A DNA stretch of 64,000 bases from Myxococcota bacterium (GTDB taxonomy: Bacteria > Myxococcota > XYA12-FULL-58-9 > JALHOP01), in assembly GCA_022842935.1 (NCBI GenBank), contig JALHOP010000014.1:58053-122052 (forward strand), in the 5' to 3' direction. This document shows, piece by piece, positions 51,800-54,700 of this stretch. The position numbers were made by a program, and so were the translations under genes. How positions within the stretch are numbered: position 1 is the stretch's first letter; each line of letters opens with the position of its first letter. The notes under the pieces were generated by a model. The model saw nothing but the letters and a program-made list of their open reading frames with translations, was not told where the DNA came from and did no database searches.

Positions 51800-54700
51800 C
51801 TACGAGCCGGGAAAATCGAGGGGCGGGAGGTCGCCCGCCGGGGTGCGCGACTCCAGCACGGACTGGTTGCCGGGGCCCACAGGGTCGAAGTTCGCGCGGA
51901 TCTCGAGCCGCCCGTTGTTCATCACGTAGGTGAAGTTCTCGGCGTTGTTGTCGACCACGAAGCGACCCGGAGCTACGCTGTCGAGGTGCGCCTGGTACGC
52001 CTGCGCGCGCGCATTGGCGAGCGCCCATGCCTCGGTCTGCAACTCGACAGGCAGTTGCGAGAACAGCGTTCCCTGGGCGTAAGGCGTCACGAGCGTACCG
52101 GCCTGCGTACCCAGGCGAGCGGTGACGACTTCGGCGAATCCGCCCTCGCGCAGCAGCGCGTGCGCCAGCACTTGCTCGGCCGCCACCGTCGAGAGGTCGG
52201 TGCCCGCGGCGAACGCCTCGGGAAGGAGCGTCTTGGTGACACCCGTCGGCCCCATGATCGCAACGCTGAAGGAGCCCTCGAAAACGGTGCCCACTGGAGG
52301 AGGGACGTTCTCGACCAGGGTCATGGTCTTGGGCATGAGTGCCCGGACGCGATCGAGCATCGCCGCCTCGTCTGCCGCCATGCTCGCGCCCGCGCCGGTG
52401 CCAAGCATCATGTCGAGGGGAACGATCCGACCGTCTGGGGTGAGCATGAAGTCACCAGGCTGCACGTCGCCGAGATATCTGCCGGTAGCGCGCACTTGCT
52501 CGAAGAAATCGCTGACAGCCTTGAGGTGCTGCTCGGTGACGGGGAACGGCAGGGCCCCGTTGGACGCCAAGGCCCGCTCGGCGCTCAAGAGGTCGATCCC
52601 ATCGACGCGCTCGAGCGTGAAGCCAATCTTCCACTGTCCGTCGACCTCGATGCGCACGAAGTCGCCGACCTTGGGACCGCCGAACGCTTCGAGCGCCTTC
52701 TGGGCATTGTAGTCGGTCATGTCCTTCACGTTGCCGAGACCCATCGGCGTCTTCACGACCGTCCCGTCGTTCGCCACCCAAATGTCGCTCGTACCACCGG
52801 TGCCCCTGTTCAAGTTCACGCCGGTGTTGGCGATGGGGGGATATCGGAAGATGGTGTCGAGATCCGCGAGCGTGTCGGTGATCGACCCGGTGCCACCTCC
52901 TGAGACGTGGGCGTTGAAGGCATCCAACTTGGCCTGGCGCAGAACGGGGTCCGTCTCGTTCGACAGACGCGCCAGCTGCTCAGGCAGTCCCATCTCCAAG
53001 GCGACGTTGTTGACGGTTGCGGCGTCGGCGTGGCGCAGCGCGGCGAGCACGTCTTCGCTCGCGCCATTGCGAGCAAGGGCGTCGATGAGCACCTGCTCGG
53101 GGGCTTTCCCGGAGCCCACCGCCCTGAGGAAGTCGGCTTCGCTGATACCGAAGGCCTCCCCACCGATCTCCATCGCCTCTCGGCCAATCGGCGACAGGCT
53201 CGACGCGTCGATCGCAGCGCGGCCCACGTCGGTGGCCACCGTTGTCGTGGCCGTGGTGGTACCGGTCGCGACACTTTCGCCGCGCGCTGTGAGGCGGGCC
53301 AACTCGTTCGCCTGTTCAGCCACCGACAGATAGAGCGGAGAGCCGCCGCTCGCGGCGCGCAACGTGGCCGCAGCTGCATCGTCCGCGAGCGGCGCAACCT
53401 CGGAGCCGACGCGGAACGCGCCCTGAATCTCGAACGCCGACTTCACCACCGCCTCGCCGAAACGTGCGAGACCCTTGGGGATCGTCGACAACGCGCCAAA
53501 TGCGACCATGACGGCGGATACGCCACGATCGACGGCACTGAGCTGTGCGCCGGTGTTCGGGTCAACGCCATTCGCCAAACGGTAACTGTCGTTGAGCGGG
53601 AGAATCACCTCCTTGAACAGGAAGTTCAGAACCGGATTGTTCTTCACGGCGATGACGACGTCGGGAACCGCGGTGGTCGCCATCAGCTGACCCAGCGTGT
53701 CCAGACGTTGCAGCATCGTCATGTTCGAGCCGTCGGCATTCTTGCCGCTCTCGAGGAGCGAGAAGAGCGCCGCCGCCGTGCGATCCCTGTCGGCGATCTC
53801 CGCGGCTGTCCTCGCGCCAGCTGCGTCGAGCGACGCCTTCGCCGAGCTCAGGGCGCCCGACAGCGCACCAGCCGCGACCACGAGCTTACCCTTCAAGAGA
53901 TCCCAAGCGCCCTCCTCGAGAAGAACGCCGTCGCCACCAAGCTGGTCCCTAAGGTCGGTCAGCGCCGCGTCGCCAATCGTGAGGAAGCCCAAGTTGCCAT
54001 CGGCCACGAACTGCGTGACCGAGCTCAACCCCGCCTGCCCGTCGGGAGTGAGGACCGTGCCCATACGCTGGCCCGCGAACTCGTACTTACCATCGCGCAG
54101 CACGTACACGTCGGCACCGCTCGAGCCCTCGTCCAAGGCCGCGCCGTCGGGGCTAAGAATGATCGCGTTGCCGCCTGGAGCGCGCATCACGACCCCTTCA
54201 ACCATGCGCCTGGTTCCGTCGGGGTCGGTGACGACCTGCACCACGGTCTCGCCGGTCGCGAGGGGCCTGTTCGCGATGCCCGCAAGAGCGTCGAGCGAGG
54301 TACCCGCGGCCGTCAGGCTCGCGGCGTTGAGCGGAATGGCCACGTAGTCGGTGCCATTTGCATCGACAGTGAGCTGTCCGTCGGCTCCAACGATCATCCC
54401 GGCGCGCAGCGAGTCGAGCGACAGGGTCACTGGGCCATTCGGCCCGTCGATCGTCACCGTGACGTTGTCGGCGGTGAGCTCCAGACTCGCGCCGTCGCTC
54501 GTCGTCAGAAGCTGCCCCGTTCCGCCGCGGAACAAGTGCATCGGCAACAGCGCGACGGCTTCGTCACCGTCAGGACCAGAAACGCGTCGCAGGCTGACTT
54601 GGCCCGACAGTGAATCTTCGCCGGCGAGCTGGACACTGACGCGGAACAGGGAGCTCTCTGCTTGCGCGAGCAAGCCATCGAGCCCTGGCACCGACGCGGT

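What the first reader, a model, noticed from the sequence alone, without database searches (positions are those of the whole stretch)
51800..53000. C-terminal domain of the giant protein has protein-kinase-like motif order
Within the last about 400 residues: a Gly-rich turn followed by a Lys (NRGTGGTSDIWVANDGTVVKTPMG), a hinge-like LERVDGIDL, and a catalytic-loop/DFG-like stretch GDVQPGDFMLTPDGRIVPLDM (D-x-x-P-x-(D/N) then hydrophobic-x-LD). This resembles minimal kinase-fold effectors, but it is an inference from motif order only. The immediately downstream 177-aa gene (8-nt gap) is in the position expected for a cognate immunity or partner protein.
Basis: inference. Interest (0 to 1): 0.5.

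Follow-up and report, generated by a model that had tools for sequence, protein, structure and literature searches.

The report
Minimal kinase-fold toxin domain, unnamed family
The tail of a giant secreted-toxin-like protein carries a stripped-down protein kinase domain from an unnamed family that also rides on other bacterial toxin-delivery proteins, so it is probably a weapon that acts by phosphorylation; the neighbouring small gene's role as antidote is unproven.

Summary

Gly-loop, K1475, D1570, D1575 and D1588 occupy the canonical catalytic positions and are conserved. The domain ends about 30 residues after the DFG-equivalent, so most of the C-lobe is missing. No Pfam or NCBIfam model covers the window's domain.

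The host protein carries a PT-TG pre-toxin domain. Relatives of the kinase domain sit at the C-terminus of an RHS protein and inside a prePAAR/Eag type VI effector, so it is toxin or effector cargo.

Not supported:
- The last 170 residues (domain B) are a separate orphan, not part of the kinase.
- The 177-aa downstream ORF (7-nt gap) is also an orphan, and no immunity family is shared across the related loci examined.

Substrate and target organism are unknown.

The parts
51800..56995 (-). Giant protein gene. It is 1731 aa from M61; the longest ORF, 1791 aa, extends to 57175. All residue numbers in this report use the 1791-aa frame.
   Evidence: ORF list and translation. An identical 1731-aa NCBI protein is P0001. 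The pre-M61 stretch lacks the coding GC3 pattern.
54806..56647 (-). Scaffold region, aa 177-790. It is shared at 40-46% identity with three proteins that carry a different C-terminus (trypsin-like, GGMSGGPV). It contains an internal duplication, aa 197-324 versus 359-482.
   Evidence: The homologues come from Myxococcota and 'Bdellovibrionales' MAGs.
53447..53608 (-). PT-TG pre-toxin domain, aa 1190-1243.
   Evidence: Pfam PF14449, E=3.8e-8, 33.6 bits against a cut-off of 23.5.
52865..53101 (-). Helical stretch preceding the kinase domain, aa 1359-1437. It is weakly conserved in some family members.
   Evidence: BLASTP alignments of family members extend to about aa 1359-1366. Sub-significant phmmer hits fall at the corresponding positions.
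52316..52864 (-). Minimal protein-kinase-fold domain (domain A), aa 1438-1620.
52739..52810 (-). Gly-rich loop (G1458-x-G1460) and beta3 Lys K1475 (codon 52751-52753).
   Evidence: Aligned to the StkP GRGGMADVY...VAVK segment. In the family, G occurs in 34 and 38 of 39 ungapped rows, and K in 35 of 41 (R in 4).
52589..52615 (-). Hinge segment LERVDGIDL, aa 1521-1529.
   Evidence: Aligned to StkP AMEYVAGLDL. G1526 is invariant.
52409..52471 (-). Catalytic loop and DFG-equivalent: D1570 (HRD Asp position), Q1572, D1575 (metal-binding Asn position) and D1588 (DFG Asp position).
   Evidence: Aligned to [23 protein letters not shown] of StkP and [23 protein letters not shown] of P0047. Conservation: D/E in 43 of 44, D/N in 39 of 44, D in 43 of 44.
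51803..52315 (-). Domain B, aa 1621-1791: an orphan C-terminal segment of unknown fold. Residues 1665-1737 weakly resemble aa 1358-1430.
   Evidence: No hit in the exhaustive search. hhalign against the kinase family gives 1.6% probability. Nothing in PDB, Pfam or PADLOC. Internal similarity is reached by 6 of 5000 shuffles.
51259..51792 (-). 177-aa ORF, co-oriented, 7 nt after the giant gene's stop codon. It is a candidate immunity or partner protein, unverified.
   Evidence: coding-like GC pattern. It is an orphan, has no family hit and has no homologue in related loci.
57218..58468 (-). ECF-type sigma factor gene (Sigma70_r2/r4 plus DUF6596), immediately upstream and co-oriented. Possibly the same transcription unit.
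   Evidence: Pfam. Linkage is by position only, and it is not conserved in the homologous loci.

Best explanation
The giant protein is a polymorphic-toxin-type secreted protein of a Gram-negative, myxobacterium-like organism. Downstream of its PT-TG pre-toxin domain it carries a cargo that includes a roughly 180-residue minimal protein-kinase-fold domain.

This domain belongs to an unnamed family that serves as C-terminal or internal cargo on several delivery chassis: RHS, prePAAR/Eag type VI effectors, and large Sec-signal proteins.

Proposed mechanism (inferred from residue conservation and homology):
- ATP/Mg2+ is bound between the Gly-rich loop, K1475 (with an acidic alphaC residue near D1488), D1575 and D1588.
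- D1570 acts as catalytic base.
- After delivery, the domain phosphorylates a substrate in the target cell. By analogy with its closest sequence and structural relatives, the substrate is most likely a protein Ser/Thr, and the effect is to poison or reprogramme the cell.

The kinase fold and the cargo context are shown. Activity, substrate, target organism and the immunity role of the 177-aa ORF are inferred.
For: - Family: 44 other hits at E<=0.001 in 1.8 billion 50%-identity representatives, all to aa about 1438-1613; two are ordinary kinases.
- Kinase homology: profile against PDB gives StkP 6.8e-12, PknA 2e-9, then RIO2 and CK2alpha. hhalign of Pkinase protein P0047 against the family gives 98.8% probability, E=1.2e-16, over 157 columns from G-loop to DFG. 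The window sequence against an StkP fragment by BLASTP gives 2e-5.
- Catalytic residues are conserved across the family.
- Toxin context: PT-TG at E=3.8e-8. The N-terminal scaffold is shared with proteins bearing a different C-terminus.
- Family member P0050 is an RHS protein with a PTRLTDPLGL cleavage motif and the domain at its extreme C-terminus.
- Family member P0013 is a prePAAR+TMD effector with a DcrB/DUF1795 chaperone gene upstream and VgrG nearby.
- By the coordinates, the padded extraction window reaches the protein's last residue in about 20 of the 46 family domains, meaning the domain lies within a few tens of residues of the end (in P0050 and P0011 within about 5-20; P0005 is one residue short of the criterion).
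Against: - No biochemical evidence exists.
- The catalytic loop is atypical: Gln/Asn replaces the Lys, Asp often replaces the Asn, and the HRD His/Arg are absent. It resembles small-molecule kinases and ABC1/UbiB locally.
- In the window protein the kinase domain is not terminal, since an orphan 170-aa domain follows it.
- In several relatives the domain is internal, and in one it occurs in three tandem copies.
- No conserved immunity gene accompanies the family. In the 7 family loci examined, only one has a small co-oriented ORF directly after the gene, read from a raw ORF list.
- The 177-aa ORF has no homologues.
Confidence: 0.6

Rival explanations
1. The fold is a kinase fold, but the chemistry or substrate is not protein Ser/Thr phosphorylation. 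The domain might phosphorylate a small molecule, lipid or nucleotide, as APH, choline kinase, Kdo kinase or UbiB do. Alternatively it might catalyse another ATP-dependent transfer such as AMPylation or glutamylation, as some atypical kinase-fold enzymes do.
For: - The catalytic loop D-[VI]-[QN]-P-G-[DN]-F resembles the Brenner-type motif of small-molecule kinases and ABC1/UbiB.
- Sub-threshold ABC1 hits occur in 12 of 37 members and APH hits in 5 of 37. UbiB hits occur in 7 of 37, and RfaY in one.
- The substrate-binding C-lobe is absent.
Against: - The strongest full-length similarities are to Hanks-type protein kinases, not to APH or ChoK.
- The nearest structures (HopBF1, NleH1, OspG) are protein kinases (PMC9950578).
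Confidence: 0.2
2. The kinase-like domain is an accessory module, for example for regulation, cofactor sensing or target binding. The real toxin of this protein is then the orphan terminal domain B, and the equally orphan 177-aa ORF is domain B's immunity protein, the two forming one cassette.
For: - In polymorphic toxins the most C-terminal domain is usually the toxin.
- Domain B and the 177-aa ORF are both without homologues and are adjacent.
- In several relatives the kinase-like domain is internal.
Against: - By the coordinates, the extraction window reaches the protein's last residue in about 20 of 46 family domains, and the domain ends 21 residues before the end of an RHS protein. It can therefore be the sole terminal cargo.
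- Catalytic residues are conserved, as expected for an enzyme.
- Domain B has no recognisable toxin fold. Part of it looks like a diverged copy of the helical stretch before the kinase domain.
Confidence: 0.15
3. The domain is a pseudokinase or scaffold that binds a target without catalysis.
For: - The HRD His/Arg and the catalytic-loop Lys are missing.
- Some members carry Gln or Arg at the metal-binding position.
Against: The G-loop, beta3 Lys, catalytic Asp/Glu, Asp/Asn and DFG Asp are conserved in most members, including the window protein.
Confidence: 0.04
4. The motifs are a chance resemblance in a non-kinase domain.
For: The short motif GD[IV]QPGDF[MV]LTPDG also occurs in an unrelated Hint/intein segment of a phage terminase (L005).
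Against: Full-length profile, profile-profile and structural matches to kinases.
Confidence: 0.01

Closest known systems
HopBF1 (type III effector; Ewingella homologue, PDB 6pwd)
   Different: Identity is only 8% in the structural alignment, and no sequence-level hit was seen. HopBF1 is a stand-alone T3SS effector against eukaryotes. Here the domain is cargo of a PT-TG giant protein, and in relatives of RHS and T6SS effectors. The substrate is unknown.
NleH1/NleH2 and OspG (enteric T3SS effector kinases; PDB 4lrj, 4q5h)
   Different: Identity is 10-13%. The delivery system is different. There is no evidence here for cofactor activation.
Bacterial Hanks-type Ser/Thr kinases (StkP, PknA, PknB)
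   Same: These are the best sequence-profile matches (E 7e-12 to 3e-9) and the best Foldseek matches. The order of G-loop, VAIK Lys, hinge, catalytic loop and DFG is identical.
   Different: The family stops about 30 residues after the DFG-equivalent, with no activation segment, APE motif or helices F-I. HRDxKxxN is replaced by x-x-D-x-[QN]-x-G-[DN]. The window protein does not reach the Pfam Pkinase threshold.
Tox-Peptide Kinase of polymorphic toxins (Zhang et al. 2012, PMC3482391)
   Same: A kinase-type toxin domain predicted in polymorphic-toxin-related proteins. This shows that kinase cargo has a computational precedent.
   Different: That domain is related to lantibiotic-synthetase kinases, has motifs DxH, YKP[KR] and DxHxEN, and occurs in Firmicutes with PVC-type secretion. 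The present family lacks these motifs. It gives only sub-threshold LanL/LanKC hits, in 3 and 2 of 37 members respectively.
RIO and Bud32 small atypical kinases
   Different: These are housekeeping ribosome and KEOPS factors, not secreted cargo, and they have different catalytic-loop sequences.

Membership tests
Protein kinase-like (PKL) superfamily | Gly-rich loop followed by a conserved beta3 Lys | tested here: met
   G1458-x-G1460 and K1475 align to the GxGxxG...VAVK segment of StkP and P0047. They are conserved in the family.
Protein kinase-like (PKL) superfamily | Catalytic-loop Asp plus a downstream metal-binding Asn/Asp, and the DFG Asp | tested here: met
   D1570, D1575 and D1588 align to HRD-D, the catalytic-loop N and DFG-D. 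Family conservation: D/E in 43 of 44, D/N in 39 of 44, D in 43 of 44.
Protein kinase-like (PKL) superfamily | Statistically significant similarity to bona fide kinases, and the N-lobe/hinge/catalytic-core fold | tested here: met
Protein kinase-like (PKL) superfamily | ATP-dependent phosphotransfer activity | not testable with these tools
   This needs biochemistry.
Pfam Pkinase (PF00069), canonical Hanks-type kinase domain | Score above the gathering threshold, and a complete C-lobe (activation segment, APE, helices F-I) | tested here: not met
   No Pkinase hit for the window protein. Only 2 of 37 family members give E<=1. The domain ends about 30 aa after the DFG-equivalent, and several members terminate within about 5-20 aa of that point.
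Minimal kinase-fold effectors (HopBF1; NleH/OspG) | Kinase core of about 160-200 aa lacking most of the C-lobe, with these proteins as nearest structural neighbours | tested here: met
Minimal kinase-fold effectors (HopBF1; NleH/OspG) | Sequence-level membership of the HopBF1 or NleH/OspG families | tested here: not met
   Identity is 8-13% in the structural alignments. These proteins are not among the phmmer hits or the 60 best profile hits in PDB. A direct profile-profile test against these families could not be run.
Minimal kinase-fold effectors (HopBF1; NleH/OspG) | Type III secretion into a eukaryotic host | not tested
   An SseC-like translocon gene lies about 50 kb away, but nothing links it to this protein. 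Relatives use RHS or T6SS chassis.
Polymorphic toxin system | A conserved N-terminal or central scaffold with variable C-terminal cargo among homologues | tested here: met
   Residues 177-790 are shared at 40-46% identity with P0002-P0004, whose C-termini are trypsin-like instead.
Polymorphic toxin system | A pre-toxin domain upstream of the cargo | tested here: met
   PT-TG PF14449, E=3.8e-8, above threshold.
Polymorphic toxin system | The same cargo domain reused on other delivery chassis | tested here: met
   RHS protein P0050. prePAAR/Eag/VgrG locus of P0013.
Polymorphic toxin system | A cognate immunity gene immediately downstream | tested here: inconclusive
   A co-oriented 177-aa ORF lies 7 nt downstream. 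It is an orphan, and no neighbour family is shared among the related loci.
Tox-Peptide Kinase (Zhang et al. 2012) | Motifs DxH, YKP[KR] and DxHxEN; relationship to lantibiotic-synthetase kinases | tested here: not met
   The motifs are listed and are absent from the family alignment. There are only sub-threshold LanL/LanKC hits in a few members.
ABC1/UbiB atypical kinases | Pfam ABC1 or TIGR01982 score above the cut-off | tested here: not met
   The window domain scores 10.8 bits against a cut-off of 22.9, and 15.4 bits against 487 for UbiB. The matches cover only the catalytic-loop region.

The most novel reading that the evidence does not exclude
This is the founding example of a previously unnamed class of kinase toxins: a minimal kinase core derived from Hanks-type kinases by loss of the C-lobe. 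It is mounted on polymorphic-toxin chassis (PT-TG, RHS, prePAAR type VI) and kills or disables prey or competitor cells by phosphorylating a conserved target. It may be active only once a target-cell factor is bound, which would explain why most loci lack an immunity gene.
Probability: 0.3. Interest if true: 0.75.

Novelty: new variant of a known kind. Interest (0 to 1): 0.6.

Why it matters
Phosphorylation is a well-known strategy of type III and type IV effectors against eukaryotic hosts. I found no characterised kinase among contact-dependent polymorphic, RHS or type VI toxins in the literature I could search. The only precedent found is a computational note on a different, lantibiotic-synthetase-like kinase domain.

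A compact 180-residue family with intact catalytic residues, reused on several delivery chassis and absent from Pfam and NCBIfam, is a tractable candidate for three things:
- a new toxin mechanism;
- a new entry in toxin-domain catalogues;
- a natural example of the smallest functional kinase core.

Tried and rejected
1. I first read the last 170 aa (domain B) as a second kinase copy: FEGSFS...VTK, LVTPYAQG, VVDNNAENF...NFDP. I rejected this. There are no homologues, hhalign against the kinase family gives 1.6% probability, BLASTP of A against B is not significant, and PDB, Pfam and PADLOC give nothing.

2. The word-indexed search with the C-terminal 364 aa found nothing. Only the exhaustive search revealed the family.

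3. Single-sequence AF2 of the 363-aa tail was useless, with pLDDT 35.

4. The genome-contig scan with the catalytic-loop pattern found no verified relative. The metagenome scan gave one true locus (L004) and one false positive, a Hint/intein in a phage terminase (L005).

5. Exact look-ups of the window protein and of P0003 in the contig index failed, so the source organism is inferred only from homologous MAG loci and gene content.

6. Searches for a homologue of the 177-aa ORF or of domain B next to family members were negative. The window's flanking genes also have no counterpart next to the scaffold homologues.

7. The afdb50 fold library was unavailable.

8. Literature searches for a described kinase cargo in T6SS, RHS or polymorphic toxins returned nothing specific.
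Full report
**Observation**

The finding lies in the 3' part of a 1791-codon ORF on the minus strand (window 51800-57175). An identical NCBI protein of 1731 aa starts at M61. The stretch before M61 lacks the coding GC pattern, whereas every later segment has GC3 of 0.72-0.87.

The three quoted motifs are at aa 1456-1479, 1521-1529 and 1569-1589, which is window 52409-52810. A 177-aa ORF (51259-51792, GTG start) follows the TAG stop after 7 nt. It has a coding-like GC pattern and ends 22 bp from a convergent TLC-type transporter gene.

**What the kinase-like stretch is**

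A word-indexed search with the last 364 aa found nothing. An exhaustive phmmer search over 1.84 billion 50%-identity representatives returned 44 proteins besides the query's own protein at E<=0.001, 24 of them at E<=1e-10. All of them match only aa about 1438-1613.

The two weakest hits, P0047 and P0048, are canonical Pfam Pkinase proteins (E 2.5e-46 and 1.9e-47). The other 42 form a coherent family.

A 37-sequence alignment (A1) gave these results:
- Searched as a profile against PDB sequences, it hits StkP (6.8e-12), PknA (2e-9), RIO2 and CK2alpha over profile positions 24-179.
- hhalign of P0047 against A1 gives 98.8% probability, E=1.2e-16, over 157 columns.
- The window sequence alone against an StkP fragment gives BLASTP E=2e-5.

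- GTGGTSDIW...VVK corresponds to the Gly-loop plus the VAIK lysine (K1475).
- LERVDGIDL corresponds to the hinge.
- GDVQPGDFMLTPDGRIVPLDM corresponds to HRDLKPxN...DFG, with D1570 at the HRD Asp, D1575 at the metal-binding Asn and D1588 at the DFG Asp.

Across the family these positions are conserved:
- Lys in 35 of 41 rows (Arg in 4).
- Asp/Glu in 43 of 44 rows.
- Asp/Asn in 39 of 44 rows.
- Asp in 43 of 44 rows.
- In addition, an acidic alphaC column (window D1488) and a nearly invariant His (H1550).

**Fold**

With A1 as the alignment, AlphaFold2 gives mean pLDDT 92.7 and pTM 0.87. The order of elements is that of a kinase N-lobe, alphaC, hinge, alphaD/E, catalytic strands and one terminal helix.

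The domain ends about 30 residues after the DFG-equivalent. Where the alignment ends can be read directly, members such as P0050 and P0011 stop within about 5-20 residues of that point. The activation segment, APE motif and helices F-I are therefore absent.

This is the 'minimal kinase fold' known from the type III effectors HopBF1, NleH and OspG (PMC9950578). Identity to those proteins is only 8-13%, so the relationship is one of fold rather than family membership.

No Pfam, NCBIfam or PADLOC model reaches threshold on the window's domain. Across the family there are mostly weak hits to ABC1/UbiB, APH, LanL/LanKC, Bud32, RIO and PknB models. The best is an ABC1 hit at E=2.1e-8 in one member, local to the catalytic loop.

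**Context**

The host protein has a PT-TG pre-toxin domain at aa 1190-1243 (E=3.8e-8, above threshold). Its aa 177-790 are shared at 40-46% identity with three proteins from Myxococcota and 'Bdellovibrionales' MAGs, and those proteins end instead in a trypsin-like domain. This is a polymorphic-toxin-like exchange of C-termini.

The window's gene content indicates a Gram-negative, myxobacterium-like genome. It includes TolB, a lipid A acyltransferase, CcmF, a Hanks kinase and an SseC-like protein.

The kinase-like domain recurs as cargo elsewhere:
- P0050 is an RHS protein (E 4.4e-63) with the PTRLTDPLGL cleavage motif at residue 962 and the domain at its extreme C-terminus.
- P0013 begins with a prePAAR motif and transmembrane segments. 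It is preceded by a DcrB/DUF1795 (Eag-type) gene and lies near a VgrG gene.
- P0012 comes from a Polyangia MAG.
- Others have Sec-type leaders, and one carries three tandem copies.

The domain is therefore toxin or effector cargo that moves between delivery chassis.

**What is not supported**

Domain B (aa 1621-1791) has no homologue and no similarity to the kinase family. I withdraw my own first impression that it was a second kinase.

The only lead for domain B is a 73-residue ungapped match, at 30% identity, between aa 1665-1737 and aa 1358-1430, the helical stretch that precedes the kinase domain. Only 6 of 5000 shuffles reach that score.

The 177-aa ORF is in the classic immunity position, but it is an orphan in 5.8 billion proteins and has no family hit. 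Of the 7 family loci examined, only L004 has a small co-oriented ORF directly after the gene (202 aa, overlapping its stop), and that comes from a raw ORF list. The remaining loci have convergent genes, larger or unrelated co-oriented genes, or nothing. No neighbour family is shared among these loci.

Two readings of this remain open. One is that the 177-aa ORF is immunity for domain B, which is also an orphan. The other is that the kinase needs no immunity because it acts on non-self targets or requires a target-cell activator, as OspG does (PMC9950578).

**Mechanism and rivals**

The best-supported model is an active phosphotransferase delivered as toxin or effector cargo, most likely acting on protein Ser/Thr (confidence about 0.6).

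The catalytic loop is unusual. The Lys is replaced by Gln/Asn, the Asn is often replaced by Asp, and a third of members have Glu at the catalytic Asp position. Locally it recalls small-molecule kinases, so a non-protein substrate or other ATP-dependent chemistry is a real alternative (about 0.2).

An accessory role, with domain B as the true toxin, gets about 0.15. A pseudokinase gets about 0.04. Chance resemblance is excluded.

**Novelty**

Minimal kinase effectors and polymorphic toxins are both known. Zhang et al. (2012) noted one different kinase-type toxin domain, which is lantibiotic-synthetase-like and carries a DxHxEN motif.

I found no description of this family, or of a kinase cargo on RHS, T6SS or PT-TG proteins, in the searchable literature. 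I therefore rate it a new variant of a known kind, of moderate-to-good interest, with experiments needed for activity, substrate and immunity.

Noticed in passing
window 583-2046 (+): A 487-aa protein with an SseC-like (type III translocon) Pfam hit, E=5.9e-9. The four following ORFs (2303-8163) have no Pfam hit. This may be part of a myxobacterial T3SS-like apparatus.
   Followed up: no
window 36883-37890 (-): A 335-aa protein that fuses two immunity-type domains, Imm11 (E 1.9e-6) and SUKH-1/SMI1_KNR4 (E 2.3e-5). It looks like an orphan polymorphic-toxin immunity gene, about 14 kb from the giant gene.
   Followed up: no
window 55730-56101 and 56204-56587 (-): An internal duplication within the scaffold region of the giant protein: aa 197-324 against aa 359-482, 33% identity, E=4e-18.
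   Followed up: partly
window 51965-52183 versus 52886-53104 (-): A 73-aa ungapped similarity (30% identity) between domain B (aa 1665-1737) and the helical stretch before the kinase domain (aa 1358-1430). Only 6 of 5000 shuffles reach the score. This may be a diverged partial duplication.
   Followed up: partly
window 57218-58468 (-): An ECF-type sigma factor with a DUF6596 C-terminal domain lies directly upstream of the giant gene and is co-oriented with it. This linkage is not conserved next to the scaffold homologues.
   Followed up: partly
L005 4373-4438: The short motif GDIQPGDFVLTPDG occurs in a Hint/intein segment of a phage large terminase. The catalytic-loop string on its own is therefore not kinase-specific.
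   Followed up: yes
L010 (P0013 locus) and L012 (P0050 locus): Family members on other chassis. P0013 is a prePAAR+TMD effector with a DcrB/DUF1795 chaperone gene upstream and VgrG nearby. In L012 there are two tandem RHS genes. The first is followed by a small overlapping DUF6960 gene, while the kinase-bearing second has no co-oriented downstream gene.
   Followed up: partly
P0022 (aa 37-188) and P0016 (aa 3555-3796): Two family members also carry a canonical Pkinase domain elsewhere in the same polypeptide. In P0022 that domain is N-terminal and truncated at profile position 158 of 263.
   Followed up: no
window 50031-51236 (+): A TLC ATP/ADP-transporter-like protein (E 1.6e-17, partial match). 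It is convergent with the 177-aa ORF and ends 22 bp from it.
   Followed up: no
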